A DNA stretch of 64,000 nucleotides, taken from NCBI GenBank assembly GCA_003598015.1, contig QZKE01000033.1:124616-188615 (forward strand), written 5' to 3'. The notes beneath the pieces were generated by a model that searched no databases, was not told the origin of the DNA, and worked only from the letters and a program-made list of their open reading frames with translations. The DNA is from Actinomycetota bacterium. Lineage in GTDB: Bacteria; Actinomycetota; Geothermincolia; Geothermincolales; RBG-13-55-18. Shown piece by piece: positions 35,600-55,996 of the stretch (positions within the stretch are counted from its first letter, which is position 1; each line of letters starts with the position of its first letter). The translations under genes were made by a program, and so were the position numbers.

Positions 35600-35617
35600 A
35601 GGGGAAAGGAGACAGCC

Positions 35618-35959
35618 ATGGCCGTTGGTTTCCCGGCTAAATACGAGGAAGTACGCCCATACAACCTGCACTTCAACTATCTCAGCAACGCTGCGGTGAA
35701 CGCGCTGAATTCCCTGGGATGGAAATACTATGCTTTAACTCCCTATCAATTCAGCGCGGAGGGCAAGATGAGCCTCTTATCCTGGGGCGAGACCATGGCC
35801 ATCAATATCTTCCAGGACGGAACGGTGCAGATGCTGAGCAAATGCTCATTCCCCCTGCAATGGTTCGATTGGGGCAAGAACAAGAAAAATGTGGTCCGTT
35901 TCTTCGCCTGGCTGGATTATTTCCTTTCCCAGATGGCCTATGCGCCTGGAAACAGATAA
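35618..35959 (+). CDS. Hypothetical protein (aromatic-rich, no recognised domain)
   Basis: 113-aa ORF, RBS GGAAAGGAG, 19 nt after preceding gene; lower GC than surroundings. Confidence 0.4.
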   Translation: MAVGFPAKYEEVRPYNLHFNYLSNAAVNALNSLGWKYYALTPYQFSAEGKMSLLSWGETMAINIFQDGTVQMLSKCSFPLQWFDWGKNKKNVVRFFAWLDYFLSQMAYAPGNR

Positions 35960-36148
35960 TTATCAATGAGAGCCTTCACTTCCTGAGGGCTGACGTAAGG
36001 GGGGTAGAACGTACCCGACTCCGATCAATTGCCCCAGGCGTAATGGTAAGAATGAGCCTGGGGTCAGAATGTGAGGATCTACTGGCTAAATGACCGGAGA
36101 TCACACCGGACAGGGCTACGCCCTGGCTGCGTTATTCTCAATCTTCGT

Positions 36149-36799
36149 CTAAGTGCCTTCGTAACCTTTCTCGTAGTCCTTATTGTAACCGTCATAGAAA
36201 CCGCGTTCATACTCTGGGGGGCCGCCGCCGGTCCAAAGGCCGGGTGTGGGGCTGAACCCAAATCCGAAATCCTTGTCCGCTTCGCCGTGCCTTAAGCCCA
36301 TCTCATATCCATCTTCGTAGCCAGCATCGTAGTCCAGGATTCTATCTGACTCCACGGTCTCTTTATCATCACTGGAGGCCTCCTCCCCAGAGGCCTCTTC
36401 CTCGGAGGCAGCTAACTGCAGCTCTTCCTCCTTTATGCGAATGCAATCTTCGTAAGCGTCAAAATATCCATCCAGATTACCAACCCGGAATCCCTCGTCA
36501 TACTTTGCATTGCCGGTCTTGACGCCCATGGAAGAAGGGGTGAAGTCTTCTCCCCTCGCGTAGTCCCCCGTCCCTTCGGAATACCCGTTCTTATAGCCGA
36601 GATCGTATCCTTTGCGATACTCCTCACTTGTGGATTTGTTGCGGTTGGCTGGATCGCCGACACCCTGTTTCTTCAGCAAGTCCATGTACGCCTTGTTCCT
36701 CTCCGCCAAGCTCTTGCCGTTGCAGCCGCAAGAGAGGATAAGGGACAGGCTGAGTAAAGATATGATCAGCAACAGACCCCTGGTGGTGGCCTTCTGTAT
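36149..36799 (-). CDS. Predicted lipoprotein with Gly/Tyr/Asp-rich repeats (GYDLGYKNGY, DGYFDAYED, GYEDGYEMG)
   Basis: Signal peptide ending in lipobox-like LILSC|GC; low-GC gene. Confidence 0.5.
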   Translation of the reverse strand: MQKATTRGLLLIISLLSLSLILSCGCNGKSLAERNKAYMDLLKKQGVGDPANRNKSTSEEYRKGYDLGYKNGYSEGTGDYARGEDFTPSSMGVKTGNAKYDEGFRVGNLDGYFDAYEDCIRIKEEELQLAASEEEASGEEASSDDKETVESDRILDYDAGYEDGYEMGLRHGEADKDFGFGFSPTPGLWTGGGPPEYERGFYDGYNKDYEKGYEGT

Positions 36800-36971
36800 C
36801 ATCACAACCACCTGTTTTGGATTTGCCGCCCTATTGCTTTGATTATATACAGTGAGGGAATCCTATGCCTAGCATGTAGGATACGTATACAGTGCCATCT
36901 TTGCGGCTCTCTTTGAATCTGAGTCCTGCTAGGGTACATCTATATCCAGGATCACACGGGAAGGGCGTAAG

Positions 36972-37038
36972 TTGACGTTAGAATCGATATGTTCTATAGT
37001 TAACTGATATATATACTATATTGTTAGTTTACAATAGG
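36972..37038 (+). promoter_or_regulatory. Promoter for arsR-nifS-dsrE operon (TTGACG 36972-77, 17-nt spacer, TATAGT 36995-37000) followed by TATTGT-N6-ACAATA inverted repeat (putative ArsR operator)
   Basis: Read from sequence immediately 5' of ATG 37050. Confidence 0.4.
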
Positions 37039-37049
37039 TTCAGGTAGAG

Positions 37050-37370
37050 ATGAACGAGATATTCGAACTCCACGCGGACATATGCAAGACTTTTGCGAAC
37101 TCCAAGAGGCTTGAAATCATCGATGCATTGAGGGATCAAGAGATGACAGCAAGCCAGTTGCTCATGCGAATCGACACCAGTAAGGCAAACCTCTCACAAC
37201 ATATGAAAGTACTTGTGGAAAAAGGGGTAGTGGATTCGAGGAAAGACGGAGTGAAAGTTTACTACCGCCTGAGCGACGAGAGGATAACCAAAGCGTGCGA
37301 CCTGATGCGCGAGGTGTTGATAAAAAGGTTGGAGCTGAACAACGAGATCCTACAGAATCTGAGAAAGTAA
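37050..37370 (+). CDS. ArsR/SmtB family transcriptional regulator
   Basis: 106 aa; wHTH ICKTFANSKRLEIIDAL...MTASQLLMRIDTSKANLSQHMKVLVEKGVV. Confidence 0.8.
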   Translation: MNEIFELHADICKTFANSKRLEIIDALRDQEMTASQLLMRIDTSKANLSQHMKVLVEKGVVDSRKDGVKVYYRLSDERITKACDLMREVLIKRLELNNEILQNLRK

Positions 37371-37371
37371 A

Positions 37372-38580
37372 ATGAACCAGCGTAGCGTATCAGCGGGAAA
37401 CACGGAAGCCGGAAAACCGGTCTATCTGGATTATAATGCAACCACGCCAACCGATCCCGATGTTGCTGAGGCGATGCGGCCTTATCTTGCGGAGTATTTC
37501 GGAAATCCGTCCAGTTCCTATTCGTATGGCATTCAAACAAAGGACGCCATTGAGAACGCGCGCGCGCAAGTCGCGGCGCTTCTAGAATGCCAACCCCATG
37601 AGGTGGTCTTCACCAGCGGGGGGACAGAATCCAATAATTTCGCGATAAAAGGAACGGCCTTCGCCAATCGCGATAGGGGCAACCATGTCGTAACAGCACA
37701 GATCGAGCACCCGGCAGTCACGCAGGTATGCGAGTACCTCGAGCGGCAGGGTTTCGATATCACTTATCTGCAGGTCGACGAATTCGGCCTCATCAGCGTT
37801 TCGGATGTCGAAAAGGCCATTAGCGGTAGAACTACGCTTATAACCATCATGCACGCCAACAACGAGGTTGGGACCATTCAACCCATCGAACAGATTTCCA
37901 GGCTGGCTTCCGAAAAGGGGGTCACCTTCCATACCGATGCTGCTCAATCCGCCGGGAAGATCCCCGTAAGCGTCGGTGATCTTGGGGTTGACCTCCTTTC
38001 CCTGGCCGGGCACAAAATATATGCTCCAAAGGGTATTGGTGCATTGTACATCCGACAAGGCCTGAGGCTCGAGAAATTCATGCACGGAGCCGGCCAGGAG
38101 CGAGGAATGAGGGCTGGAACCGAGAACATCCTGGGGATTGTAGGCCTTGGGAAAGCCTGCGAGATCGCGAAGCGGGACCTAAGCCGTAACGCGTCCCGGA
38201 TGAGAGACATGCGTGACGCATTATATAAAGGATTGTTTGAAAGCCTGGAAAACGTGCGGCTGAACGGGCACCCGGAGAGGCGTCTCCCCAATACGTTGAG
38301 CTTCAGCATTCAGGGTGTTCAGTCGGACGTTCTCCTCGGCAAGATCAAGGGACGTTTGGCTGCTTCCGCAGGTGCGGCCTGCCACTCCGGCGAAGTCGAC
38401 ATATCCCACGTCCTACGGGCGATGAAAGTGCCGGAGGATTGGGCGAGAGGGACAATCCGTTTGTCCACCGGCAAGATGACGACCGAATCCGATATCGAAA
38501 CGGCGATAAGGATTATCGCGGATGCGGTGAGCAGTCTCAGGGACACAGCGGATGGTTCTTCTATGAAGAGGAGGTTATGA
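37372..38580 (+). CDS. nifS: Cysteine desulfurase (NifS/IscS-type, class V aminotransferase)
   Basis: YLDYNATTP, GGTESNN, PLP-Lys motif SLAGHKIYAPKGIG, active-site SAGAACHSG. Confidence 0.9.
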   Translation: MNQRSVSAGNTEAGKPVYLDYNATTPTDPDVAEAMRPYLAEYFGNPSSSYSYGIQTKDAIENARAQVAALLECQPHEVVFTSGGTESNNFAIKGTAFANRDRGNHVVTAQIEHPAVTQVCEYLERQGFDITYLQVDEFGLISVSDVEKAISGRTTLITIMHANNEVGTIQPIEQISRLASEKGVTFHTDAAQSAGKIPVSVGDLGVDLLSLAGHKIYAPKGIGALYIRQGLRLEKFMHGAGQERGMRAGTENILGIVGLGKACEIAKRDLSRNASRMRDMRDALYKGLFESLENVRLNGHPERRLPNTLSFSIQGVQSDVLLGKIKGRLAASAGAACHSGEVDISHVLRAMKVPEDWARGTIRLSTGKMTTESDIETAIRIIADAVSSLRDTADGSSMKRRL

Positions 38581-38900
38581 TGAAACTCGGCATGATCATC
38601 AGCCAGACCGATGCGGAGACCGTCTTCAACGCCTTGCGCCTGGCCCTCTACAGCCTGGAACAGGGCGACGAGGTGCGCATTTTCCTTTCGGGAAGAGGCG
38701 TTGAGATAGACAGCATAGAGGATCCCAAGTTCGATGTGAAGGCCCAGGCACAGCTGGTCCTGGATGCGGGCGGACAATTCCTCGCATGTGGCGCATGCCT
38801 GAGGCTTCGCAACTCCGAGGGGTCTGAGATATGCCCCCTCTCAACTCTAATGGATCAATACGATATCGTACGCGAATCCGACAGGGTCGTGACGTTCTGA
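38580..38900 (+). CDS. DsrE/DsrF-like sulfur-relay family protein
   Basis: ATG 38580 with GAGGAGG 7 nt upstream, overlapping nifS stop; about 107 aa with conserved Cys (ACGACL). Confidence 0.6.
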   Translation: MKLGMIISQTDAETVFNALRLALYSLEQGDEVRIFLSGRGVEIDSIEDPKFDVKAQAQLVLDAGGQFLACGACLRLRNSEGSEICPLSTLMDQYDIVRESDRVVTF

Positions 38901-39003
38901 CACTTATTCAGTAGAGTGGGCGGAAACGGAGGCAGACCGTTACCCGATCGGCAAGTCATTTGGTTGACCTTGATTTGTGTAGGAATATTCTGGTAAGCGC
39001 ATC

Positions 39004-39040
39004 TGCCTCGAAAGGCGTTTCGCTTTGCCGCGGGCTTTGC
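39004..39040. repeat. Left copy of imperfect direct repeat TGCCTCGAAAGGC...GGGCTTTGC flanking the HepT/MntA + TIR-gene islet
   Basis: Matches 43592-43616 (TGCCTCGAAAGGCaccGGGCTTTGC); left copy has a 12-nt internal insertion. Confidence 0.45.
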
Positions 39041-39209
39041 GGAATCGCATCCCTCCCCTCCGTCAACATCTATCTTGAGCTGGGAATCTGCGTGAAAAAT
39101 CTAGACCGCTTGTTTATGCCATCGAATTGCGAATTCCCCGGCTGTGCCCAAAACGTGCCCGATTTACGAGGAGGCCAGAGTGCAGATATGATGGAGAAGG
39201 CAGCGCAGG

Positions 39210-39557
39210 TCATACTTCTTTCTCTATTACGTATGCGATGAGCGGCTTAAGTCTCGGGATGTCCTCCATCACGGTGTTCCATACCACCCTTGAATTCACC
39301 CCGAAATATTCATGGATCAGCTTATCACGGATTCCAGCCATCTCCTTCCAGGGGACCTCTGGATAGGAATCCCTTGTCTCTGGAGGGATTTTCTTCGAAG
39401 CCTCGCCGACGATCTCCAGGGCCCTGACCACGGCGTACGAGGTCTTCTTGTCCTTTGTGAATGCTTCGTAATCAAGGCCTTGCGTAAAATCCACGATGTC
39501 CAGGATAGCCCTTTGGATGTCTTGAAGGTAGTCCTTATGATCTCTTTCGGCAATCAT
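39210..39557 (-). CDS. hepT: HepT-like HEPN toxin (DUF86 family) of type VII TA system
   Basis: R-x4-HxY motif (RDKLIHEY); 115 aa; 4-nt overlap with upstream mntA. Confidence 0.85.
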   Translation of the reverse strand: MIAERDHKDYLQDIQRAILDIVDFTQGLDYEAFTKDKKTSYAVVRALEIVGEASKKIPPETRDSYPEVPWKEMAGIRDKLIHEYFGVNSRVVWNTVMEDIPRLKPLIAYVIEKEV

Positions 39558-39895
39558 AGCGAAACGGCTTCCTTGAGGATTCTTTCACCTATTGCCGGCT
39601 TCAATGCATCCTTCATCACCAGGTCTACCTTGATTCCCAGAAGGTCGGATAGGTGATTCTCGAGTGCGATGAAAGCAAGCAAAGAGGGGGTTTTTACAAA
39701 CTCTACTAAGAGATCAAGATCGTTTGCCGACTCTCTCCCGCCCCGCAGAAAGGACCCGAAGACCTGAATGTTGCCTACGTGGTAGTCACATTTCAATCGC
39801 GGGAGGTTCTGGCGCAAGGCAGATATTATCTCCTGGGTATCTCCAGGAAGATCCTTATAACCATGTGGGCTCTTACCCTTGGAGTCCGTAGCCAT
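39554..39895 (-). CDS. mntA: MntA-like nucleotidyltransferase antitoxin
   Basis: GSxxRG...DxD motif (FGSFLRGGRESANDLDLLV); 113 aa. Confidence 0.85.
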   Translation of the reverse strand: MATDSKGKSPHGYKDLPGDTQEIISALRQNLPRLKCDYHVGNIQVFGSFLRGGRESANDLDLLVEFVKTPSLLAFIALENHLSDLLGIKVDLVMKDALKPAIGERILKEAVSL

Positions 39896-40208
39896 ACCCT
39901 TTCCACCACCTCAAATCGGCCTGTTCTGTAAACATTCTACAATGCCAAGAAGACCTTGACACTATAAAAACATTACATGGGGCTAAACAGCACAGCCCAT
40001 GCCGGTCGTGAGGGTGCTGTCGTGATCCGTAATGTGTGGGACTACCCAGATATGATACCCCTACCCGAGGTGCTATCATGGTTGTAGTGCTGTGGTTCGG
40101 GGCCAAAGGGTTCCAACTATTTAAGGGTTACGCGCAGGGCAGTTCCCTTGCATGCGTGACCACCATCAAGAGGGCCTGCACCACTGGATCTATCCAGGTG
40201 AGGTGCAC

Positions 40209-43200
40209 ATGGGAAATATCTTCATCAGCCACGTCATTGCGGACGAGCTCCTCATGCGCGAAATAGCGCAGGGGCTCGAGGAGGCGGGCTATGCCGCCTG
40301 GTTCTTCGAGAGGGGCGTCCTCCCCGGAACCTCCTATCTCATCCAGATCACCCGGGCGATAGAGGCCTGCGACGCCCTGGTACTGCTGGTCACCCCCGCA
40401 GCCCTCGAATCCGACCAGGTGACCAAGGGGGTGGTGGGGGCCTTCGAGCGCAGGATACCTTTCATACCGGTACTGGTGGGTGTGATCCCTGACGAGCTCA
40501 AGGAATGCCAGCCGGAGTGGCGGCACGCCCTGGGGGGAACGGCCATGCTCTGCTGCGGGGAGGGGGGCCTCTCACCCACCATACCGCGCATCATAGATGG
40601 AATCCGGGCGCTGGGCATAGAACCCAAGGAAAGGGAGTTCTCTACAACTACCCCTGCTTCCTCCGCACCAGCAGATGTCTCCGAGCACATTCTCTCCTAC
40701 CGCTCATCCCTGGAGGGGGAGCGCAAGCAGGTGACGGTGCTCTGCGCCGGCGCATCCCTTCCTCCCGCCCTCTCCGAGAAGCTCGACCCCGAGGAGGTAC
40801 ACGACCTCCTGAGGCCGGCTATAGACATCATGGCTGAGGAGGTCCACAGATACGAGGGCACCGTGGCCCAGCTCGCAGGCGACGGCCTCACCGCCGTCTT
40901 CGGAGCCCCCCTGGCTCACGAGGACGACCACCAGCGGGCCCTGTACGCGGCACTGGCCATCAGGAAGCGCCTGGGCGGATACGAGGAGAGACTCAAAGCC
41001 AAGGGGATGGAACTTGCCCTGCGCGCGGGGGCCAACACCGGCCTCATCAAGGTGGAGGCCGTAGGGGAGGACCTCTCCATGTCCTATACCCCCCTGGGCA
41101 TGGGCAAGTCCCGCCTGCTGCTCGAGTTCAGGAAAACCCTCCCCGAGGACGAATACACCTACCTGGAGGGGGGGTGAATCCACTACGGGGAGGCCATCGC
41201 CTACCTCCCCATCCTGGACATCCTGCGGGACTACTTCGATATCGCTGAGGGAGAGGATGAGAAGAGCAGCAGACGCAAAGTGGAGGAAAGGCTGGCTCCC
41301 CTGGACGGCCAGCTCTCCCATATCCTCCCGCCCCTCGAGGAGCTGCTCTCCCTTCCCATGGACGACGAGTCCTATCTCTCCCTGGAGCCCGCGCAGAGGA
41401 GGAAGAGAACCTTCGAGGCCATCCGCTGTCTGCTCATAGCCGAATCCCACAAGAGGCCTCTGGTGGTCTCGGTGGAGGACCTGCACTGGATGGACAGGAC
41501 GAGCGAGGACTTTATCTCCTATTTCGTGGAGAGCATGCCCGCTGCCTCCATCCTCCTGCTCCTGCTCTACCACCCGGAATACAGCCCTGCCTGGGCAAGC
41601 AAGACCTATTACCGGCAGATCCTCGTGGATCACCTGCAGGAGAGGCCGAGCATGGAACTGGTGCAGGCCATCCTCTCTGATGGTGAGGTCTCCCCCGAGC
41701 TCTCCGCTTTTATCACCGAAAGAGCCGCTGGGAACCCACTCCTTATCGAGGAGCTCACCCGCTCCCTGCTGGAGTCGGGCTCCATCACGGCAGAGGACGG
41801 GCGCTACACCCTCGCGGCCGAGCCCTCTGAGATCAAGGTGCCGGATAGCATGCAGGGCATCGTCGCCTCCCGCCTGGACCATCTGCCTGAGGAGGAGAAG
41901 GAGGTTCTGCAGCTCGCCTCGGTCATCGGGAGGGAGTTCTCACTGCGCCTGCTGGAGGAGGTCACCGGCCTGGGTAAGGTGCTCAAGTCCACACTCCACG
42001 CCCTGCAGTCCCTGGAGCTCATCTACGAGAAGGGCCTCTTCCCTGAGCCGGAGTACATCTTCAAGCATGCCCTCACCCAGGAGGTGGCCTACGAGAGTAT
42101 CCCCTCAAGAGAAGGAAGAGACTGCACGAGAAGATCGGCCAGGCAATTGAGCGGCTCTACCCGGAACGCCTGGAGGAATTCTACGAGACCCTGGCCCACC
42201 ACTACTCCAGGAGCGAGAACGCGGAAAAAGCCGTGCACTACCTCCGGCTCTCCGGAGACAGAGCGACACGCGACTACGCCAACTGGGAGGCCATACGCTT
42301 CTACCAGGAGGCTATACATATACTCGATTCCCAACCGCAGAGCGAGGAGACAAAACGGGCCAAGTTGGATATCTTCATCTCCATCCTGGACCCCGCCTTC
42401 TTCCTGGGCTTTCCCGAGGGCAGCAGCGAGTTCCTGGCAGAAGCGGAGAGGCTCGCCTGGGAACTTGGTGACGATGGCAGCCTTGTCGCCGTTTACAGCA
42501 GGTTCTCCCTCTACCACACCATGAGGGGAGACATATCCCTGGGTGTGGAATACTCCTGGAAATGCTTCGACGCAGCGGAGAAGGCCGGGGACGTTAGATC
42601 TATGTCCCTAGCCGCTTTCGACATCTGCAGCTCCCTGTTCTTCTCGGGAGATTTTTTAGAAGTCGTCATGATTGGCCGCAAGGTCATCGAGGCCCTGGAG
42701 GAGAAGCACCTGGAAAAAGAGCTCAAAGTAGGGCCGTGGACCGTATACAGCGATCAGTGCGCGTGGTGCGGAGAAGCCCTGGGGATGATGGGGGAATTCG
42801 AGGAGGCAAAGACGGTGCTGAAGAAGGGGATCGAGCATGCCCTGGGGATCGGTGAAGTCTTCGGGATCGGATATATCGGCCAAGCTCACTGCGTCGTTTC
42901 GTTCCCGGAAGGGGACGCGGATGGCCTTGCCTATCACGCGAGCAGGTCCATCGAGCGCTTCGAGGAGACGGGGGTAAAGTTCCTCCTGGGAATTTCGATG
43001 GCTTGGTCGGGGCTGGGCTATTTGCTCCTCGGCGATTATGAAACTGCAAGGGAGGATATCGAGAAGGGCAGCGAGAGCAATAGAGAGTTTGGCTTACCAA
43101 TCATGCTGTCGTTTTTTTCATGGGCGCTGTCCCTGGTTGATCTCGGAGCAGGGGCACCCGGCAAAGCAAAAGCGCATGCGGAGGAGGCCTTGAGGCTGGC

Positions 43201-43519
43201 GCGTGTGCACGGGGCGGTGTTATATGAGGCATTGGCCCTAGTGGCCCTGGGAAGGGCGGAGGGAGAAGAGTCCCCCTCTCGTTTGCGGGAAGCATCAGAG
43301 CATATCCGTTGCGGTATTTCCATGGCCGAGGAGATGTTGTCGAAGCCAATCTCACAGCTGGGCTATATTTTTCTTGGCGAGGTCTTCGAGCTAGCCGGCC
43401 GAAGGGAAGAAGCTGTGGAGGAACTTCGTAAGGCAGAGGCGATGATGGAGGAGCTGCGGGTGATTCCCGACTCCTACTGGCTCACCCGCACCCGGGAAGC
43501 TCTGGCGCGTCTCGGTTAG
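40209..43519 (+). pseudogene. Disrupted TIR domain - class III adenylate/guanylate cyclase (partial) - AAA_16/STAND ATPase - TPR protein (in-frame TGA at 41175-41177; -1 frameshift in C4 run 42101-42104)
   Basis: TIR: MGNIFISH...DALVLLV...PVLV. Cyclase N-half: ERKQVTVLCAGA...GDGLTAVFGAP..HEDD. Walker A: GMGKSRL. The same frame continues after TGA (...LEGG*IHYGEAIAYLPILDIL...). The downstream frame resumes ...PLKRRKRLHEKIGQAIERLYPERLEEFYETLAHHY then TPR repeats to 43519. Confidence 0.6.
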
Positions 43520-43591
43520 GAATAGATCTACTTCGCGATTCCATAACATGATGTGCGATTACACCGAAACCGCCCATTTGAAAATCTCACA

Positions 43592-43616
43592 TGCCTCGAA
43601 AGGCACCGGGCTTTGC
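43592..43616. repeat. Right copy of direct repeat TGCCTCGAAAGGC-N3-GGGCTTTGC
   Basis: See 39004-39040. Confidence 0.45.
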
Positions 43617-43672
43617 TGCTGGTCGCGCGAGTCCGCAACCAACCCTATCCGCTGGCATTAGAGCGATCTTGT

Positions 43673-44209
43673 TCAGGCCATCTTCTTGCGTAGTTTCGCC
43701 AGCTTGGGAGAGATGACCGCCCGGCAGTAGGGCTGGCTCGGGTTCCTCTCGTAGTACCTGTGGTGGTATTCCTCGGCCGGATAGAACCTGTCCAGCTCCT
43801 TAAACTCGGTGACGATGGGCCTGCCGTAGCTGCCGGTGATGCTCGCGATATATTTCTCCACGCGCTCTTTCTGCTCCGGCGATTTGTAGAGGATAATGGA
43901 CCTGTACTGCGTGCCGACGTCGGCGCCCTGGCGGTTCAGCGACGTTGGGTCGTGCGTCGCGAAGAACACCTCCAGCAAGTCCTCCAGGGAGATGACCTCA
44001 GGGTCGTACTCTACCTCGACAACCTCGGCATGGCCCGTGTTTCCATAGCAGACCTGGCGGTAGGTGGGTTCCTCAGTCACGCCTCCCGCATAACCCGGGG
44101 TAGCCCTGAGCACTCCAACAATGGTGTTCAGCAGTGCTTCCATGCACCAGAAGCACCCTCCACCCAGGACGATGGTCTCGTGGCTATTCTGCATTATCAT
44201 CGGGTACAA
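43673..44209 (-). CDS. msrA: Peptide-methionine (S)-S-oxide reductase MsrA
   Basis: GGGCFWC active-site motif; 172-178 aa. Confidence 0.9.
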
Positions 44210-44555
44210 ACCTCATGGAAATGGAATTTACGCAATGGCGCGTGTCCTTGGGGGTGAACCTCTCACCCTCGAAGACGTGGCCGAGATGGCCCCCGCACTT
44301 CGCGCACATGATCTCCGTCCTCCTGCCGTCTGCGTCGGTTTGCCTCTTCACCGCCCCCGCGATCTCGTCGTCAAAGCTGGGCCAGCCGCAGCCCGAATGG
44401 AACTTGTCCTGCGAGCGGTAAAGGGGAGTACCGCACCTCCGGCATACGTAGGTGCCTGGCTGTAAGAGGTCCGTATACTCTCCCGTAAAGGGTCTTTCCG
44501 TTCCCTTGTGAACGATAATCCTCTCTTCCTCGGCCGTAAGCTTTCTCTCTTCCAT
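44184..44555 (-). CDS. msrB: Peptide-methionine (R)-S-oxide reductase MsrB
   Basis: Zn-binding CxxC pairs ([20 protein letters not shown]), catalytic RHC(V)NS; overlaps msrA by 26 nt. Confidence 0.9.
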
Positions 44556-44578
44556 GTTTGTCCCAATCCTCTTCTCAT

Positions 44579-44613
44579 TCAGGCATAGGGGTCGGCCCTG
44601 GACTCATGCCTGA
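44579..44613 (+). repeat. Third copy of dispersed palindromic repeat (TCAGGCATAGGGGTCGGCCCTGGACTCATGCCTGA) with terminal inverted ends TCAGGCAT/ATGCCTGA
   Basis: 32/32 identity to 19575-19606; intergenic between msrB and the repeat-domain gene. Confidence 0.6.
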
Positions 44614-44695
44614 GACCTTTCTTGCGATCTTGGTTCTCCAGTCTATATAAAATCTATTCCCATTCGGGCCACGCCTGTATGTTCCATGTCAACCT

Positions 44696-45837
44696 TCATG
44701 GCTGGAAACCCACAACGTCGTGGCCTCCGCTCCATGACCCGTCGTAGTCGAAGTACATGGGGCGCTCGGCGATTACAGGCGGGCCGCTGGTCACCAGGAC
44801 CCGGCAGGACAATTGCAGGCCGATGCCGGCGTCCAGGTTGACGGGGATGGTGTAACGGCTCCCGGCCGGCAGGCTGTGCTCACGGGTGAAGGCGTCCCCA
44901 CCCTGGGGCATGTAGGTCACCAGGACAGTGGATGGAGAATCGGCGGGGTTGTACAGGCACAGCCACTCCTCGAAATCGCTGTCCGCGTATCCCTCGGCGA
45001 AAAACCATTCACGCCCCGGCGCGCCTGCGCCGATGACGCAATGACCTCCCGTCCATGCCCCATGATAATTGAAGTACATGGGTCGTTCGGCTACGATGGG
45101 CGCATCCGCTGCGACCTTGACGGAAACCTCGCGGTTTGGCCCCACGACGTCGTTAACACATACCGTAGTGCGGGAGACGGGACCGACGATGACATCCTGA
45201 TCCTGCCTGGTGCCGTCGGCGAACATGTAGGATATGGAGACGCCGGCCGGCTGCAGGCCGGGGTTCGCGAGGCAGAGATACTCGTCGAACTCGCCCTGTC
45301 CCGTGTATCCCTCTGCGAAATAGAAGATCGTCCCGGGGCGGGGGTACCGATGACATCATGCCCGCCCGTCCACACCCCGTTGTAATTGAAATACATGGGG
45401 CGCTCCACTACGATAGGCTGCCCCCCGGCGCTTTCAACTTTCACGGAGAAGTCGTGTGCTACGTCGTCGGCGACGCCCAGCTCGTCCCGGGGATCGACGG
45501 TAAGGCGGGAATGTGCGGCTACGGCCACTTCCTGGCTGTCCATCGTGCCGTCTCCCAGCATGTAGGTTATTTTCGCCGTCGCTTGTTCGTCCCCGGGATT
45601 CTGGATGCACAGGTAAGGCACGAAGCCGGGTCGGCAGGTCCCCTCCGCGAAATAGAAACAAGTCTGCGGCGCGGGGATACCCACTACGTCATGGCCACCC
45701 GTCCACACCCCGTTGTAGTTGAAGTACATGGGGCGCTCGGCCACGATACGCTGTCCGTTCACGCATTCGACTTTGATGGAAAAGTCGTATGAGGTGTCGT
45801 CACCGGTCCCCAACTCGCTGCGGGGCAGCACGGTCAT
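44696..45837 (-). pseudogene. Tandem-repeat protein (at least 3 copies of an about 120-aa domain with W.FAEG and ERPMYFNY..W.GGHDV motifs) split into two frames by a 1-nt indel near 45335-45350; N-terminus starts mid-repeat
   Basis: Track ORFs 45091..45837 and 44696..45226 overlap in different frames. DNA at 45315-45378 is 1 nt shorter than the paralogous segment at 45655-45719. Confidence 0.45.
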
Positions 45838-46039
45838 GCGTGGTCCTCATCTATAACACTGCACAGGTCAGAGCTTCATCTCTCCGAACTGCTTTCTTAC
45901 CTCAGTGGAGGGCGGAGGATCAAAGCCCCCATAGGCTGCGCCAACGGATTTACAGTCCGGAGATGCCCCTAGTACACCTCAGATAATCTTGTCAAGATCT
46001 CAATCCCCGCTCCCCCACCGATCCTCTATATATAGTGGC

Positions 46040-46171
46040 ATGAAATCTGTGCCCCTCCATGACGGAGACGAGTGCCTGGGATCCGTCCTCCTCACCACCG
46101 ACCTCGATTTTTATGACGGCATGAGGTCAAGGCACGGAAGTGGAGGTGATTGTCGCCAAGTAAGGGTATAA
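46040..46171 (+). CDS. Small hypothetical protein (about 43 aa), paralog of 47335..47523
   Basis: MKSVPLHDGDECLGSVLLTTDLDFYDGMRSR vs MKNVPLYDCDQNIGSVPLTTNLDTWDGMRWR; ends 55 nt upstream of Fic. Confidence 0.35.
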   Translation: MKSVPLHDGDECLGSVLLTTDLDFYDGMRSRHGSGGDCRQVRV

Positions 46172-46226
46172 TAATCATTGTATTACCCTTACTTATGGGT
46201 TATTACCCCGACTGTCAGGAGGGCAG

Positions 46227-47273
46227 ATGAACACGCTGTCGCTGGAATACATAGGGGGGAAGCTCCTGCCTCAGCAGTTGTTGAAGACCATCAGATTGAT
46301 CGGGGAATACAAAGGGAGGCAAGACCTGTTCAAGGCGCAGGCGCCACAGATGCTGGAGAGCTTGAGGCAGGTGGCCATGGTGCAGAGCGTGGAGTCTTCC
46401 AACCGCATCGAGGGCATCACCGCACCCCATGAGAGAATCCTGGCCTTGGTGGGCGAAAAAACCTCGCCCAAGGACAGGTCCGAGCAGGAGATCGCCGGAT
46501 ACCGGGACGTGCTCAACAGCATCCACGCCAATTATAAGAACATGGAGCTCTCTGAGGAGCTTATCTTGGGGATGCACAAAGACCTATACGGATACCTTCC
46601 CGATGAAGGAGGCTTTTGGAAGAGGAGAGACAATCGGATCGTTCAGATAATGGCCGGCGGGAGCGTGGTAGTGAGGTTCGACCCCGTGGCGGCGTCTGAG
46701 ACCAAGAAGGCCATGGCAGACCTGCAAAAACGCTTCGAGGTGTTGTGGCGCTCGGGTGAAGTGGAGCCGCTCCTTTTAATCGCAAGCTATGTATTCGATT
46801 TTTCGTGCATCCATCCCTTCCAGGATGGGAACGGCAGGATGGCGCGCCTGCTCACCCTCCTGCTCCTCTACAAGCAGGACTATGAGGTAGGCCGCTACAT
46901 CAGCCTGGAGAAGGTGGTGGAGCAAACCAAGGATAGCTATTACCGCGTGCTCTATACATCCTCCCAGGGATGGCATGAAAAGGAGCACGACATCCTGCCA
47001 TGGTGGGAATACTTCATCGGGGTTATGTTGCTCTCTTCCTATAGGGAATTTGAAGAGAGGGTGGGGGTGGTGTCCTCATCGAGGGGGACCAAGACCGCCA
47101 TGGTCTTGGACGTTATCAACGGCTTTGCAGGAGAGTTCACCTTTGCGGACTTAAAGGAAAGGTGCCCCACCGTCAGCGTGGATATGATCAGAAAGGTCTT
47201 GAAAGATGAGCGCGGGGCCGGAAACCTGGAATGCAGGGGCAAAGGCCCGGGGGCGAGGTGGAGGAATACATGA
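46227..47273 (+). CDS. Fic family protein (class II, N-terminal inhibitory SxxxEG motif) with C-terminal wHTH-like domain
   Basis: HPFQDGNGRMARLL Fic motif; SNRIEG inhibitory motif about 130 aa upstream; lower-GC region. Confidence 0.85.
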   Translation: MNTLSLEYIGGKLLPQQLLKTIRLIGEYKGRQDLFKAQAPQMLESLRQVAMVQSVESSNRIEGITAPHERILALVGEKTSPKDRSEQEIAGYRDVLNSIHANYKNMELSEELILGMHKDLYGYLPDEGGFWKRRDNRIVQIMAGGSVVVRFDPVAASETKKAMADLQKRFEVLWRSGEVEPLLLIASYVFDFSCIHPFQDGNGRMARLLTLLLLYKQDYEVGRYISLEKVVEQTKDSYYRVLYTSSQGWHEKEHDILPWWEYFIGVMLLSSYREFEERVGVVSSSRGTKTAMVLDVINGFAGEFTFADLKERCPTVSVDMIRKVLKDERGAGNLECRGKGPGARWRNT

Positions 47274-47334
47274 TATGCAACCAATGCGCTGAAAGTGCAC
47301 CTGCACTCTCAGGTAGGCATCGTCGGGCAGCAAC

Positions 47335-47523
47335 ATGTCCTTTGGTGAGGCAATGAAGAACGTGCCCCTCTACGACTGTGACCAAAACATAGGCTCCGTC
47401 CCGCTCACAACCAACCTTGACACCTGGGACGGCATGAGGTGGCGCTTTCAGCAGACCGGCTGCCATCTGGGTATAGGGAAGCTCGAGGATGGCCGCTTCT
47501 ACGCCTGCTACTCCAGCGACTAG
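47335..47523 (+). CDS. Small hypothetical protein (paralog of 46040..46171); in-frame TAG at 47521 followed by 52 more coding-like codons to TAA 47689-47691
   Basis: Paralogy as above; GC3-rich codons continue in the same frame after TAG (PEGIVRRKQDDGIWEVLFRCTGDFGPPALAVVISEEEAKELVRECKEDMYEEMFG). Confidence 0.4.
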   Translation: MSFGEAMKNVPLYDCDQNIGSVPLTTNLDTWDGMRWRFQQTGCHLGIGKLEDGRFYACYSSD

Positions 47524-52374: not shown

Positions 52375-53358
52375 CTAGGCGGACTCCCTGACGACCTCGC
52401 CGGGCTCTTTGTCGCTGCGCAGGCCCAGGAACCTCGGGTGGCGCAGCCTGCCATCCCGCGTCCACTCGGCGAAACCGACCCGGGCTACGAGTTCGGGCCG
52501 CACCCAGTGCACGCCCCTCTGGTCCAGGTCATCGCCGAAGGGTGAGCTCTCCTGCTCCATTCGGGATAACGACGCATGCAGGCTCTCAAGCATAGACTCG
52601 CTGAAACCCGTACCGACCTTTCCGGCATAGCGTAGCTTCTTCCCCTCGTAGTATCCGAGCAGCAAGGCTCCGAACCCGGTCCTCGTCCCCCTGGGCTCCG
52701 TGTACCCGCCGATGACGAACTCCTGCTCCCTGACGCATTTGAACTTCAGCCAGTCCGGCGAGCGTCCGGAGACATACAGGCTTGCCACCCGCTTGGCGAT
52801 GAGGCCCTCCCTTCCCTTGCCGCATATCTCCTCGAAATATGCCTCGTCGGCCTCGGGAATGTGGGAGAGGAAGCGTATGGGGTCCGTGTACGATACCGCC
52901 TTCTCGAGCAGCCTTTTCCTCGCTGCGAGGGGGAGTTGGGTGACGTCGTAACCCTCGACGTAGAGGATATCGAAGACGTAGTAGCGTATTACGATGCCGG
53001 CACCGTGGGATGTGGAGGGATTGCCACCATGCGAACGCCCCTGGAGAAGCGAGAAGCTGGTGCGATCCCCCTCGCATGCCGCGATCTCGCCGTCCAGGAT
53101 CAACGCATCGGCGGCCTGCCCGCGCAGCGCCGTCTCTATCTCCGGGTAGCCCTCGTTGAGGAGATTCCGGTTCCTCGAGTACATATTGATGTCGCCGCCT
53201 CTCTTGAAGGCGAGACAGCGTATGCCGTCGAGCTTGGGCTCGCATATCCAGCCGGGTTCGAAAAAGCGCTTGCCGGCCAGCGTCGCGAGCATGGGCGATA
53301 CCCAGCGCGGCTGCGGCGTCTTTATCAGTTTTCCCCTCAGGTCCTCCGGCAGATCCAT
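52375..53358 (-). CDS. ATP-dependent DNA ligase (LigD ligase-domain-only gene)
   Basis: KxDG adenylation motif (EPKLDGIR), downstream ligase motifs (EGLIAKR, WLKFK). Confidence 0.85.
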   Translation of the reverse strand: MDLPEDLRGKLIKTPQPRWVSPMLATLAGKRFFEPGWICEPKLDGIRCLAFKRGGDINMYSRNRNLLNEGYPEIETALRGQAADALILDGEIAACEGDRTSFSLLQGRSHGGNPSTSHGAGIVIRYYVFDILYVEGYDVTQLPLAARKRLLEKAVSYTDPIRFLSHIPEADEAYFEEICGKGREGLIAKRVASLYVSGRSPDWLKFKCVREQEFVIGGYTEPRGTRTGFGALLLGYYEGKKLRYAGKVGTGFSESMLESLHASLSRMEQESSPFGDDLDQRGVHWVRPELVARVGFAEWTRDGRLRHPRFLGLRSDKEPGEVVRESA

Positions 53359-53437
53359 GCGGCCCCCGTTGATACGCTGGAAAAACCCTGGGCGACACCC
53401 TTATAGTCACACATCCACGCGTACACTTACCAGCCCC

Positions 53438-53536
53438 ACGCTTGGTTGGGGTCAGCCCCGGACATGGGACAAAAACCAGACGTATACTCTTCCTATATTC
53501 GGTTTTTGTCCCATGTCCGGGGCTGGCCCCAAGCGT
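53438..53536. promoter_or_regulatory. Large palindrome (25-bp perfect arms CAGCCCCGGACATGGGACAAAAACC / GGTTTTTGTCCCATGTCCGGGGCTG, 23-nt AT-rich spacer containing TATACT/TATATT) in the divergent promoter region between the ligase gene and ligD PE-Pol/ku
   Basis: Exact reverse-complement arms at 53453-53477 and 53501-53525; partial extension ACGCTTGG../..CCAAGCGT. Confidence 0.5.
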
Positions 53537-53580
53537 TAGCTTGCCGTACGGGATGGGAAGATTAAGAATGGGGAGAGAGC

Positions 53581-55110: not shown

Positions 55111-55141
55111 GAGAAGAGCGAGATGAAAGGATGGGAGTGAA

Positions 55142-55996
55142 ATGCCAAAAGCACTATGGAACGGATATATAAGCTTCGGGCTGGTCAACATACCGGTCTC
55201 CCTGGTGACGGCCGTGCGCGATAAGTCCATCCATTTCAACCTCCTCCATCCCGAAGACGGGGCCAGGCTGCGCCAGAAGCTCGTGTGCCCTTTCGACGCC
55301 AAGGAAGTGGGGCGCAAGCAGGCGGCCAGGGGCTATGAAGTCTCTCCCGGCGAATACGTAATCGTCGAGGAAGATGAGCTGCGCGCGCTGGAGCCCGAGA
55401 AGAGCAGGATGATCGAGATATCCGACTTCGTCGCGATGGCGGAGATAGACCCCGTCTACTACGAGAGGCCCTATTATCTCATCCCGCAGGAGGGGGGAGG
55501 AAAGGCCTACTCGCTCCTGCTGCGAGCCATGGTGGAGAAGAACAGGATCGGCATCGGCAAGTTCGTATTCCACGAGCGCGAGCACGTGGTGGCATTGAGG
55601 CCCCTGGACGGCATCCTGTGCCTGGAGATAATGCGCTTCGCCGATGAGATCGTCGGCAGGAAGGGTATCAGGGATAGCGTGGAGGAAGAGAGGAGCGCAG
55701 ACAAGAAACAGCTCGAGCTGGCCAAGGAATTGATCGACGCCCTGGCGGGGGATTTCGAGCCGGAGAAATACAAGGACGATTACCGGGAAGCCGTAAGGGA
55801 ACTGATAGAGAAAAAGGCCAGGGGCGAGAAGATCGTGGCGGCGCCCGCAGAGGCCCACGAGGGCAAGGTCGTAGATCTCATGGCCGCCCTGGAGCGCAGC
55901 CTCGCGCAGGTCCGGGGCGGGCAGGAAGACGCCCAAGGAGCGGCGGGGAGGAAACCCACGCGCGGGGGTAGGAAGAAAGCGTCGGGAAAGCAATGA
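55142..55996 (+). CDS. ku: Ku protein (NHEJ DNA end-binding)
   Basis: MPKALWNGYISFGLVNIPV... canonical bacterial Ku N-terminus; basic Lys/Arg-rich C-tail. Confidence 0.9.
   Translation: MPKALWNGYISFGLVNIPVSLVTAVRDKSIHFNLLHPEDGARLRQKLVCPFDAKEVGRKQAARGYEVSPGEYVIVEEDELRALEPEKSRMIEISDFVAMAEIDPVYYERPYYLIPQEGGGKAYSLLLRAMVEKNRIGIGKFVFHEREHVVALRPLDGILCLEIMRFADEIVGRKGIRDSVEEERSADKKQLELAKELIDALAGDFEPEKYKDDYREAVRELIEKKARGEKIVAAPAEAHEGKVVDLMAALERSLAQVRGGQEDAQGAAGRKPTRGGRKKASGKQ

What the first reader, a model, noticed from the sequence alone, without database searches (positions are those of the whole stretch)
40209..43519. Decaying TIR - adenylate-cyclase - STAND ATPase - TPR gene (in-frame TGA, -1 frameshift, probable internal deletion)
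The N-terminus is a clear TIR domain (MGNIFISH...ALVLLV). It is followed by the first half of a class III cyclase domain that runs almost directly into Walker A GMGKSRL, suggesting an in-frame deletion. TGA at 41175 replaces what is Cys in the canonical ...LEGRC..YGEA.. AAA_16 motif. A C4 run at 42101-42104 (expected C5) shifts the frame, after which ...PLKRRKRLHEKIGQAIERLYPERLEEFY... and TPR repeats continue to 43519. TIR+STAND architectures are anti-phage or effector systems, so this TIR-cyclase variant, sitting beside HepT/MntA, looks like an inactivated defence gene. It is a fossil of a potentially undescribed TIR/cyclase signalling system.
Basis: partly seen in the sequence, partly recalled or inferred. 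Interest (0 to 1): 0.7.

Follow-up and report, generated by a model that had tools for sequence, protein, structure and literature searches.

The report
Dead TIR–cyclase–STAND sensor gene
This is a broken, non-functional copy of a large bacterial sensor gene (TIR + cyclase + ATPase switch + TPR repeats); the same genome keeps an intact copy, so the locus is an ordinary pseudogene, and only the untested gene family behind it is mildly interesting.

Summary
Window 40209-43519 (+) is a multiply disabled copy of a ~1210-aa TIR / class III cyclase / MalT-type STAND ATPase / TPR protein.

I confirmed three lesions:
- TGC>TGA at 41175, at a Cys that is invariant in 74/74 homologs.
- A 1-nt deletion at 42101-42105, at the boundary with the TPR region.
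- An in-frame loss of 105-107 codons. It removes the C-terminal half of the cyclase domain, the linker, and strand beta1 plus the first Walker-A glycine of the ATPase.

I found two more: the TIR catalytic Glu (74/74 homologs) is Gly, and the near-invariant D36 is Gly.

The same 9.2 kb is 100% identical in two metagenome assemblies, and the deletion junction shares only GG(G). Sequencing or assembly error is therefore unlikely.

An intact 75%-identical paralog (RJP35145.1) lies in the same MAG. More than 70 intact TIR-bearing relatives exist in Actinomycetota and Desulfobacterota MAGs, already annotated by domain but not characterised in any paper I found.

In this sub-clade the cyclase catalytic residues were already lost. 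TIR-bearing members lose them often (25/76, against 1/44 TIR-less).

The defence role is inferred, not shown. Interest is low.

The parts
40209..43519 (+). Whole pseudogene: TIR / truncated class III cyclase / truncated STAND ATPase / TPR. It is annotated in GenBank as three ORFs (RJP33115.1, RJP33116.1, RJP33117.1).
   Evidence: ORFs and translations. Pfam on the stitched product. 80% identity to the intact 1210-aa P0001. GenBank ORF identities.
40218..40490 (+). TIR domain core (aa 4-94). The family-specific tail QPEWRHALGGTAM follows, up to about aa 135.
   Evidence: Pfam TIR_2 E 8e-14. PDB sequence hits to bacterial TIRs 7uxr and 3h16 and to TIR-STING 6wt6. TIR fold at residues 1-135 in the AF2 model of homolog P0045.
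40314..40316 (+). D36G substitution (GAC>GGC) in the BB-loop region of the TIR domain.
   Evidence: The 74 homologs have D (72) or N (2) here; the window has G.
40428..40430 (+). E74G substitution (GAG>GGG) at the TIR catalytic glutamate position.
   Evidence: 74/74 homologs have E. This position aligns with the Glu of the WxxxE-type motif in 7uxr, 3h16 and 6wt6. Codon comparison. That this Glu is the NADase catalytic residue is established knowledge, not tested here.
40725..41096 (+). N-terminal half of a class III cyclase homology domain (aa 173-296). The first metal-binding Asp is already Gly.
   Evidence: Guanylate_cyc profile positions 7-118 of 183, 16.2 bits, below the 21.9 cutoff. D1 is G in the window and in P0001, and S in P0002.
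41095..41098 (+). Junction of the in-frame 105-107-codon deletion (CTGG|GCATGG), with 2-3 nt of GG(G) microhomology.
   Evidence: Protein alignment columns 303-409. DNA comparison with L001 and L002. Equals P0001 residues 297-401 and P0045 residues 282-388.
41097..42104 (+). Remnant of the STAND NTPase: second half of Walker A (GMGKS), Walker B, arm and winged-helix regions. Strand beta1 and the first Walker-A glycine are missing.
   Evidence: AAA_16 match covers profile positions 34-166 only, against 1-166 in intact P0001. In the AF2 model of P0045, beta1 is 380-385 and the P-loop is 386-393.
41175..41177 (+). In-frame TGA replacing an invariant Cys (TGC in the closest homologs).
   Evidence: TGA is the commonest ordinary stop codon in the window, ending 32 of 48 ORFs.
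42101..42105 (+). 1-nt deletion (-1 frameshift): CCCCT where relatives have CCCGCT. It lies at the boundary between the winged helix and the first TPR helix.
   Evidence: Maps to P0045 residues 724/725.
42105..43519 (+). TPR sensor region, about 470 aa, read in frame 2 and ending at TAG 43517-43519.
   Evidence: TPR_MalT, TPR_2, TPR_8 and TPR_12 hits. Colinear with homologs to the C-terminus.

Best explanation
Window 40209-43519 is a genuine, recently inactivated pseudogene. Its family is a single-polypeptide sensor with four parts: an N-terminal TIR (NAD+-cleaving effector type), a class III cyclase homology domain, a MalT/PH0952-type STAND NTPase (AAA_16) and a C-terminal TPR sensor.

**How the intact protein most likely works (inferred).**
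1. A ligand binds the TPR sensor and releases autoinhibition.
2. The NTPase exchanges ADP for ATP and multimerises.
3. Multimerisation brings the N-terminal TIR domains into proximity, which switches on their NADase or signal-producing activity.
4. Proximity also pairs the cyclase domains, which need a dimer to form active sites.

In many TIR-bearing members, including the window's sub-clade, the cyclase catalytic residues are lost. There the domain probably serves only as a dimerising spacer, and the TIR is the working effector.

**Why the window copy cannot do any of this (shown).**
- The TIR catalytic Glu is Gly.
- Half of the cyclase fold is deleted, together with strand beta1 and the first Walker-A glycine of the NTPase.
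- A TGA ends translation at residue 322.
- A frameshift disconnects the TPR sensor.

The genome keeps an intact paralog, so this is paralog birth-and-death in a toxin-antitoxin-rich variable island.
For: **Lesions.**

**Lesions are real rather than artefacts.**
- The 9,245 bp covering the locus are 100% identical in IMG 3300007354 (194-kb scaffold) and in IMG 3300038436 / GCA_020060335.1 (15-kb contig).
- The deletion junction has only GG(G) microhomology, too short for an assembler to collapse.
- About 45 other ORFs in the window look intact. The only other broken gene is 1.2 kb away, in the same low-GC island.

**Intact paralog in the same MAG.** P0002 (RJP35145.1) has neighbours with the locus-tag prefix C4536, the same prefix as the window's ORFs.

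**Family features.**
- TIR Glu 74/74; Walker A G, K and S 74/74; Walker B D 73/74.
- Intact domains in P0001 and P0007.
- AF2 model of P0045 has pLDDT 84.9. Foldseek's top hit is the STAND-TPR protein PH0952 (6mfv, E 3e-13), and the cyclase domain matches CyaB with target-normalised TM-score (TMt) 0.87.
- PDB profile hit to CyaB, E 7e-38.

**STAND activation model.** PMC6468293.

**Cyclase decay in TIR-bearing members.** The catalytic tetrad D-D-N-R is intact in 51/76 TIR-bearing homologs against 43/44 TIR-less ones (Fisher p 5e-5). Parsimony gives at least 13 independent state changes.

**Conflict-system flavour.**
- Tandem paralog arrays: three copies next to a SLATT_1 protein in L087, two copies in L001.
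- Toxin-antitoxin neighbours.
- The same TIR subtype is fused to vWA, nSTAND1, NB-ARC-TPR, WD40 and FGE-sulfatase domains. Kaur et al. describe such architectures in conflict systems (PMC7159879).
Against: - Selection is not detectably relaxed. Pairwise dN/dS is 0.24. Branch-specific counts are 110 non-synonymous and 92 synonymous changes for the window against 59 and 62 for P0001, which is not significant by my own estimate from these counts. Death must therefore be recent, or some lesions could still be errors.
- I could not inspect reads. I also could not prove that the two assemblies come from independent sequencing data.
- The defence function is not shown. PADLOC has no STAND/Avs hit. 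Some homologs sit among housekeeping genes (L086). No experimental paper was found.
- The comparison of TIR-bearing and TIR-less members is not phylogenetically corrected. It also uses hits selected by similarity to a query whose cyclase domain is already degenerate.
Confidence: 0.9

Rival explanations
1. The gene is intact in the organism. The TGA and the frameshift are sequencing or assembly errors next to G7 and C4 runs, and the deletion is an assembly collapse.
For: - Both small lesions touch homopolymer runs (G7 before the TGA, C4 at the frameshift).
- dN/dS on the window branch is not elevated.
- Frame breaks in other family members occur largely in long-read MAGs.
Against: - The sequence is identical, 0 mismatches over 9,245 bp, in two assemblies with different contig lengths and sample IDs.
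- TGC>TGA is a substitution, not an indel.
- The 315-321-bp deletion has only 2-3 nt of junction homology, which cannot mislead a k-mer assembler.
- E74G and D36G hit residues that are invariant or nearly so elsewhere.
- The rest of the window shows no comparable breaks.
Confidence: 0.03
2. Recoding: the TGA encodes selenocysteine (a Sec/Cys pair with the homologs) and the C4 run supports -1 ribosomal slippage, so a full-length protein is still made.
For: - TGA aligned to a conserved Cys is the classical selenoprotein signature.
- A hairpin starts 12 nt downstream of the TGA.
- A tRNA-Pro slip on C-CCC would give exactly the homologous peptide (my reading of the sequence).
Against: - The hairpin is not significant (z -1.6, 15 of 200 shuffles fold as well).
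- L001 has the identical nucleotides there, and L002 nearly so, although both encode Cys.
- No Rfam SECIS or other RNA family and no tRNA-Sec were found in the window.
- TGA is the main stop codon in the window.
- C4 with no stimulatory element is not a known programmed frameshift site.
- Even a read-through product would lack NTPase strand beta1, half of the cyclase fold and the TIR catalytic Glu.
Confidence: 0.01
3. Fragments have been put to new use. The 322-aa catalytically dead TIR + half-cyclase peptide, or the stand-alone TPR ORF, is kept as a regulator or decoy of the intact paralog.
For: - The start codon, a Shine-Dalgarno-like GAGGTG and a promoter-like site upstream are intact.
- dN/dS is still about 0.24.
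- The deletion is in frame.
- An intact paralog exists in the same genome.
Against: - No relative shows a conserved split of this kind. The broken paralog in L001 is broken at a different place.
- Half a cyclase fold is unlikely to be stable.
- The window copy deviates at 12 of 151 columns that are at least 95% conserved, against 3 of 172 for P0001. This points to decay, not new constraint.
Confidence: 0.05

Closest known systems
MalT/PH0952-type STAND ATPases with a TPR sensor (PDB 6mfv; PMC6468293)
   Same: The NTPase / arm / winged-helix / TPR layout is the same. 6mfv is the top Foldseek hit of the intact-homolog model (E 3e-13, 824 columns). AAA_16 and TPR_MalT profiles match. The expected mechanism is inducer-triggered ADP/ATP exchange followed by multimerisation.
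   Different: MalT carries a C-terminal DNA-binding effector. This family carries N-terminal TIR and cyclase domains. Sequence similarity is too low for a PDB sequence hit. The window copy lacks beta1 and half of Walker A.
Cyclase-ATPase multidomain proteins such as M. tuberculosis Rv0386, and the 'adenylate/guanylate cyclase domain-containing protein / AAA family ATPase' genes of rhizobial and Cupriavidus megaplasmids
   Same: Class III cyclase domain directly upstream of AAA_16, with TPR in the megaplasmid proteins. 468 plasmid records match residues ~155-1157 of the homolog. The purine-selecting Lys position is Gln in 53/76 TIR-bearing members. A Gln-Asn pair is reported for this mycobacterial cyclase group (10.1101/2024.03.06.583649; attribution to Rv0386 by Castro et al. 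2005 is from my memory).
   Different: These proteins have no TIR domain. No plasmid hit covers the first ~100 residues of the query. Rv0386 ends in a LuxR-type HTH rather than only TPR. In the TIR-less relatives the cyclase tetrad is almost always intact (43/44).
NCBIfam TIGR03903, TOMM system kinase/cyclase fusion protein
   Same: It is the best NCBIfam match and covers cyclase + ATPase + TPR (model positions 282-1249; 364 bits).
   Different: The score is far below the curated cutoff (705.75). The N-terminal domain is a protein kinase there and a TIR here. No TOMM biosynthesis genes lie nearby.
Antiviral STAND (Avs) and other bacterial NLR-like proteins with N-terminal TIR effectors
   Same: The logic matches: an N-terminal TIR effector, a STAND NTPase and a C-terminal repeat sensor in one polypeptide. 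Paralog arrays and toxin-antitoxin-rich or island context also fit.
   Different: No PADLOC Avs or other STAND model matches. A cyclase domain is inserted between the TIR and the NTPase. No phage-defence experiment exists for this family.
Pycsar / Pucsar (cyclase PycC plus a TIR effector activated by a cyclic nucleotide)
   Same: A class III-like cyclase and a TIR occur together. PADLOC gives a PycC hit at E 3e-7 on the remaining cyclase half.
   Different: Pycsar is a two-gene system, and its TIR effector carries a cNMP-binding domain. Here both domains are fused to a STAND, there is no cNMP-binding domain, and the cyclase is often catalytically dead.

Membership tests
Pseudogene of the TIR-cyclase-STAND-TPR family | Disabling lesions relative to intact close homologs: a premature stop, a frameshift, and loss of essential segments. 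| tested here: met
   TGA at an invariant Cys, a 1-nt deletion, a 105-107-codon deletion, and E74G. Intact homologs at 80% and 75% identity.
TIR domain (Pfam TIR_2, NADase type) | Profile match above the curated cutoff. | tested here: met
   52.6 bits against a cutoff of 28.
TIR domain (Pfam TIR_2, NADase type) | Catalytic glutamate in helix alphaC (WxxxE-type position). | tested here: not met
   The window has Gly74 and 74/74 homologs have Glu. The position was checked by alignment to 7uxr, 3h16 and 6wt6.
Class III nucleotidyl cyclase (Pfam Guanylate_cyc) | Complete domain scoring above the curated cutoff. | tested here: not met
   Window: 16.2 bits against a cutoff of 21.9, covering profile positions 7-118 of 183. 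Intact homologs score 51-111 bits.
Class III nucleotidyl cyclase (Pfam Guanylate_cyc) | Catalytic residues: two metal-binding Asp plus the transition-state Asn and Arg. | tested here: not met
   In the window Asp1 is Gly and Asp2 is present, while Asn and Arg are deleted. P0001 reads G-G-N-Q and P0002 reads S-D-N-Q.
STAND NTPase (AAA_16, MalT/PH0952 type) | Profile match above cutoff, and a STAND-TPR fold in intact relatives. | tested here: met
   54.9 bits against a cutoff of 32.6. Foldseek hit to 6mfv at E 3e-13 for the model of P0045.
STAND NTPase (AAA_16, MalT/PH0952 type) | Complete P-loop core: strand beta1 plus Walker A GxxxxGK[ST]. | tested here: not met
   The match starts at profile position 34. 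The window reads TPLGMGKS where homologs read GEPGMGKS, and strand beta1 (VVGVVG) is deleted. Walker B is retained.
Avs / known anti-phage STAND systems (PADLOC) | Match to a curated defence-system STAND model. | tested here: not met
   PADLOC returned only a partial PycC-like hit (E 3e-7) and weak TIR hits. No Avs or other STAND model matched.
Avs / known anti-phage STAND systems (PADLOC) | Experimentally shown protection against phage. | not testable with these tools
   No paper on this architecture was found.
TIGR03903 TOMM kinase/cyclase fusion | Score above the equivalog cutoff, and an N-terminal kinase domain. | tested here: not met
   364 bits against a cutoff of 705.75. Only model positions 282-1249 match, so the kinase part is not matched.
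Thoeris (ThsB TIR plus a separate effector) | ThsB-type TIR match and an adjacent ThsA-like effector gene. | tested here: not met
   ThsB hits are weak (E 0.011-0.018; ThcB4 E 8e-4). Neighbours are HepT/MntA and MsrA/MsrB.
Selenoprotein (Sec/Cys pair) | UGA aligned to Cys, plus a SECIS element and Sec machinery. | tested here: inconclusive
   UGA aligned to Cys is met. The downstream hairpin is not significant and is shared with homologs that encode Cys. No Rfam hit and no tRNA were found in the window. The rest of the genome could not be searched.

The most novel reading that the evidence does not exclude
The intact family (TIR / class III cyclase / MalT-type STAND / TPR) is an uncharacterised single-polypeptide immune or conflict sensor, widespread in anaerobic Actinomycetota and Desulfobacterota.
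- STAND multimerisation would fire a TIR NADase.
- The sandwiched cyclase domain would act either as a second signal generator (members with an intact catalytic tetrad and an unusual Gln/Thr substrate pair) or as a mere dimerising scaffold (members with a degenerate tetrad).
- The window copy and the broken paralog in L001 would be snapshots of rapid birth-and-death turnover of such sensors.
Probability: 0.35. Interest if true: 0.5.

Novelty: new member of a known kind. Interest (0 to 1): 0.25.

Why it matters
The locus itself matters little. It is a dead paralog, and correct annotation would merge three 'hypothetical/TIR' ORFs (RJP33115-33117) into one pseudogene.

The family behind it has modest value. 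It is an abundant architecture, found only in MAGs, that joins two proximity-activated signalling enzymes (TIR and a class III cyclase) to a STAND switch.

The TIR catalytic Glu is invariant, while the cyclase active site decays repeatedly and only in TIR-bearing members. This gives a testable idea about which effector does the work. Intact templates are available for testing: RJP35145.1 from the same genome, and P0045 or P0007, which have a complete cyclase tetrad.

Tried and rejected
- **Selenocysteine at the TGA.** Rejected. The hairpin is not significant and is shared with homologs that encode Cys, no SECIS or tRNA-Sec was found, and TGA is the main stop codon.
- **Programmed -1 frameshift at C4.** Rejected. 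There is no stimulatory element, and the other lesions make it moot.
- **Assembly-wide frameshift noise.** A GC3 frame plot and ORF map of all 64 kb found no other broken genes except the DUF5719-like neighbour.
- **Relaxed selection.** The Nei-Gojobori dN/dS estimate and the three-taxon counts gave no significant signal. Only the count of deviations at conserved columns is raised.
- **A conserved partner gene.** None was found. DUF433/PIN follows the gene in L001 and L002 but not in the window. L085 and L086 have unrelated neighbours, and L087 has a SLATT_1 protein plus three tandem copies.
- **Synteny with intact relatives.** Similarity to L001 and L002 stays within ~150 bp of the gene on either side; the only other match is one unrelated L002 segment at window 17962-18623.
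- **Literature.** Seven searches for TIR + cyclase + STAND or AAA_16 found nothing on this architecture.
- **Other look-ups.** P0007 and P0008 contigs were not on record.
- **Pseudogene frequency from 79 genome loci.** Eight loci have frame breaks, but four are long-read MAGs, so no reliable rate can be given.
Full report
**1. What is in the sequence**

On the + strand, 40209-41177 is an ORF that ends in TGA. The same frame stays open from 41178 to about 42104, and a third ORF in the -1 frame runs to TAG at 43519. I changed the TGA to a sense codon and added one base at 42104/42105. This gives an 1103-aa protein with four Pfam features:
- TIR_2 (aa 4-94, E 8e-14).
- Guanylate_cyc, covering only profile positions 7-118 of 183 and scoring 16.2 bits, below the 21.9 cutoff.
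- AAA_16, starting only at profile position 34 (E 2e-14).
- TPR_MalT and other TPR hits at the C-terminus.

**2. Intact relatives and the catalogue of lesions**

A search of 5.8 billion proteins returned 3104 hits at E <= 1e-10. Of the best 120, 76 carry TIR + cyclase + AAA_16 + TPR, nearly all of them 1190-1230 aa long. The closest are P0001 (80% identity, 1210 aa) and P0002 (75%, 1208 aa). Alignment with them and with 72 other full-length TIR-bearing homologs defines five lesions:

| Lesion | Window position | Comparison with homologs |
|---|---|---|
| D36G (GAC>GGC) | 40314-40316 | D in 72/74, N in 2/74 |
| E74G (GAG>GGG) | 40428-40430 | E in 74/74 |
| In-frame deletion of 105-107 codons | junction 41095-41098 | = P0001 residues 297-401; only GG(G) shared at the junction |
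| TGC>TGA | 41175-41177 | Cys in 74/74 |
| 1-nt deletion | 42101-42105 | window CCCCTC, relatives CCCGCTC |

Residue 74 aligns with the Glu of the WxxxE-type motif in three solved TIR structures: 7uxr, 3h16 and the TIR-STING fusion 6wt6. From established knowledge, this is the NADase catalytic glutamate.

I mapped the deletion onto an AlphaFold model of the intact homolog P0045 (pLDDT 84.9). It removes:
- the cyclase helix that carries the transition-state Asn and Arg;
- the last four strands of the cyclase fold;
- the linker helices;
- strand beta1 of the P-loop NTPase, together with the first Walker-A glycine.

The frameshift falls at the boundary between the winged helix and the first TPR helix.

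**3. Real mutations or artefacts?**

- The three ORF products are in GenBank as RJP33115.1, RJP33116.1 and RJP33117.1, with locus-tag prefix C4536, from a MAG named 'Actinobacteria bacterium'.
- The 9,245 bp spanning window 37280-46524 are 100% identical in two IMG data sets. One is 3300007354 (a 194,319-bp scaffold). The other is 3300038436 (a 14,959-bp contig, also deposited as GCA_020060335.1).
- The stop is a substitution. The deletion junction shares only 2-3 nt, which no assembler would collapse.
- A GC3 frame plot and ORF map of the whole window show about 45 uninterrupted genes elsewhere.
- The only other broken gene is a DUF5719-like repeat gene 1.2 kb away (44696-45837, minus strand). 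It has a 1-nt frameshift near 45330 and no proper 5' end.
- Both broken genes lie in a lower-GC stretch (about 35.6-47.5 kb) that also holds HepT/MntA, MsrA/MsrB, Fic and an ArsR-NifS-DsrE cluster.

I could not inspect reads, and I could not verify that the two assemblies rest on independent sequencing. I therefore leave about 3% for artefact.

**4. Recoding readings**

TGA aligned to an invariant Cys is the classical Sec/Cys signature, so I tested that reading.
- The hairpin 12 nt downstream is not more stable than shuffled sequence (z -1.6).
- L001 has the identical nucleotides there, and L002 nearly so, although both encode Cys.
- Rfam and ARAGORN find nothing in the window.
- TGA ends 32 of 48 ordinary ORFs.

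A tRNA-Pro slip on the C4 run would give the right peptide. However, there is no stimulatory element, and the product would still lack essential parts. Both readings are rejected.

**5. Timing**

- Pairwise dN/dS to P0001 is 0.24.
- With P0002 as outgroup, the window branch carries 110 amino-acid and 92 synonymous changes. The P0001 branch carries 59 and 62. By my own estimate from these counts the ratio is only slightly higher and not significant.
- The window copy deviates at 12 of 151 columns that are at least 95% conserved. This is the second-highest fraction among 75 sequences. P0001 deviates at 3 of 172 and P0002 at 6 of 172.

The gene was under purifying selection for most of its divergence and died recently.

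**6. An intact paralog in the same genome**

P0002 is RJP35145.1. Its neighbours carry locus tags C4536_01280 and C4536_01285, the same MAG prefix as the window ORFs. The lost function is therefore probably still covered, and the window copy is a redundant paralog in decay.

In the closest other genome (L001) there are two tandem copies. One of them is also frameshifted, at a different site. L087 has three tandem intact copies behind a SLATT_1 protein. This pattern fits birth-and-death turnover.

**7. What the intact protein is**

- The cyclase domain is a genuine class III domain. The PDB profile hit to P. aeruginosa CyaB has E 7e-38, and Foldseek gives target-normalised TM-score 0.87 at 40% identity.
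- The ATPase-TPR part resembles the STAND-TPR protein PH0952. 6mfv is the top Foldseek hit (E 3e-13 over 824 columns).
- Walker A and B residues, the TIR Glu and the Cys after beta2 are invariant or nearly so.
- The cyclase catalytic tetrad (Asp, Asp, Asn, Arg) is complete in only 51 of 76 TIR-bearing members, against 43 of 44 TIR-less relatives (Fisher p 5e-5). The degenerate patterns are diverse, and parsimony on a tree built from STAND-TPR columns gives at least 13 state changes.
- The window, P0001 and P0002 all lack the first metal-binding Asp. P0001 and P0002 have Gln in place of the Arg. The cyclase was therefore already catalytically dead in this sub-clade before the deletion.
- The Lys that normally selects the purine is Gln in 53 of 76 TIR-bearing members. 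A Gln-Asn pair is reported for the mycobacterial cyclase-ATPase group (10.1101/2024.03.06.583649).

**8. How it most likely works**

Shown: the domain order, the conservation pattern and the structural class.

Inferred: the protein follows the STAND paradigm (PMC6468293).
1. Ligand binding to the TPR sensor releases autoinhibition.
2. The NTPase binds ATP and multimerises.
3. The clustered N-terminal TIR domains become active NADases or signal producers.
4. The cyclase domains, which form active sites only as dimers (established knowledge for class III cyclases), are either co-activated or serve only as a dimerising spacer.

The invariant TIR Glu, set against the frequently degenerate cyclase, points to the TIR as the main effector.

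A conflict or defence role is suggested by three things:
- paralog arrays;
- toxin-antitoxin-rich surroundings;
- the reuse of this ~140-aa TIR subtype. It heads more than 1000 50%-identity clusters and is fused to vWA, nSTAND1, NB-ARC-TPR, WD40, PQQ-propeller and FGE-sulfatase domains. Kaur et al. list such architectures for conflict systems of multicellular prokaryotes (PMC7159879).

Against a defence role: PADLOC has no STAND/Avs match, some homologs sit among housekeeping genes, and no experiment exists.

**9. Comparison with known families**

- The cyclase-AAA_16-TPR core is common. TIGR03903 (TOMM kinase/cyclase fusion) is the best NCBIfam hit but scores far below its cutoff (364 against 706 bits).
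- 468 plasmid records, mostly Rhizobium, Sinorhizobium and Cupriavidus, encode the core. None of them covers the TIR region.
- TIR-STAND fusions are known among Avs and NLR-like proteins.
- The combination of TIR + cyclase + STAND appears only in MAGs here. It is named by domain in NCBI and IMG, and it is absent from the literature I could search.

**10. Verdict**

The interpretation as a decaying gene is right. The claim of a fossil of an undescribed TIR/cyclase signalling system is overstated for three reasons:
- intact relatives abound;
- one is in the same genome;
- the cyclase was already dead in this lineage.

The locus is an ordinary pseudogene. The family behind it is a modestly interesting, untested domain-shuffled variant of STAND sensors.

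Noticed in passing
window 44696-45837 (minus strand): A DUF5719-like repeat gene (ERPMYFNYxGxWTGGH units; Pfam E 1e-14) has a 1-nt frameshift near 45330 (GTPAPG|TIFYFAEGY) and stop codons where its 5' part should be. It is a second decayed gene, 1.2 kb from the TIR pseudogene.
   Followed up: partly
window 39210-39895 (minus strand): An apparently intact HepT (115 aa, E 4e-29) and MntA (113 aa) toxin-antitoxin pair is transcribed divergently from the TIR gene. A palindromic promoter-like site (ATGATA-N16-TATCAT) lies at 40052-40079 in the shared intergenic region.
   Followed up: partly
window ~35600-47500: A stretch of lower GC and GC3 (0.51-0.59, against 0.60-0.67 elsewhere) holds ArsR-NifS-DsrE, HepT/MntA, the TIR pseudogene, MsrA/MsrB, the DUF5719 remnant and a Fic protein. 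It looks like a variable island. No tRNA or integrase was seen.
   Followed up: partly
L001 5389-9034: In the closest other genome (MAG CAYPZH01), a tandem paralog of the same family lies just upstream of the intact P0001 gene. It is also frameshifted, at a different site (DIEVP|DTIQGII).
   Followed up: partly
L087 1-11624: Three tandem intact TIR-cyclase-STAND-TPR genes (1210, 1203 and 1207 aa) lie directly downstream of a 539-aa SLATT_1 protein.
   Followed up: no
L001 13697-14279 and L002 13698-14280: A DUF433 + DUF5615/PIN gene pair immediately follows the intact gene in both L001 and L002. It is absent downstream of the window copy.
   Followed up: no
proteins P0151-P0298 (TIR-only search): The ~140-aa TIR subtype with the QPEWRHALGGTAM tail heads more than 1000 50%-identity clusters (E <= 1e-10) with very different C-terminal parts: vWA, nSTAND1, NB-ARC-TPR, WD40, PQQ propeller and FGE-sulfatase. 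One protein has seven tandem TIR domains (P0154).
   Followed up: partly
homolog alignment: The position of the adenine-selecting Lys of class III cyclases is Gln in 53/76 TIR-bearing and 20/44 TIR-less members, and the partner position is Thr. The substrate of the catalytically intact members is therefore unclear.
   Followed up: no
window ~52375-55996: Gene-sized ORFs, some with Ku/LigD-like N-termini, suggest a non-homologous end-joining cluster. This rests on reading the translations only and was not confirmed by HMM.
   Followed up: no
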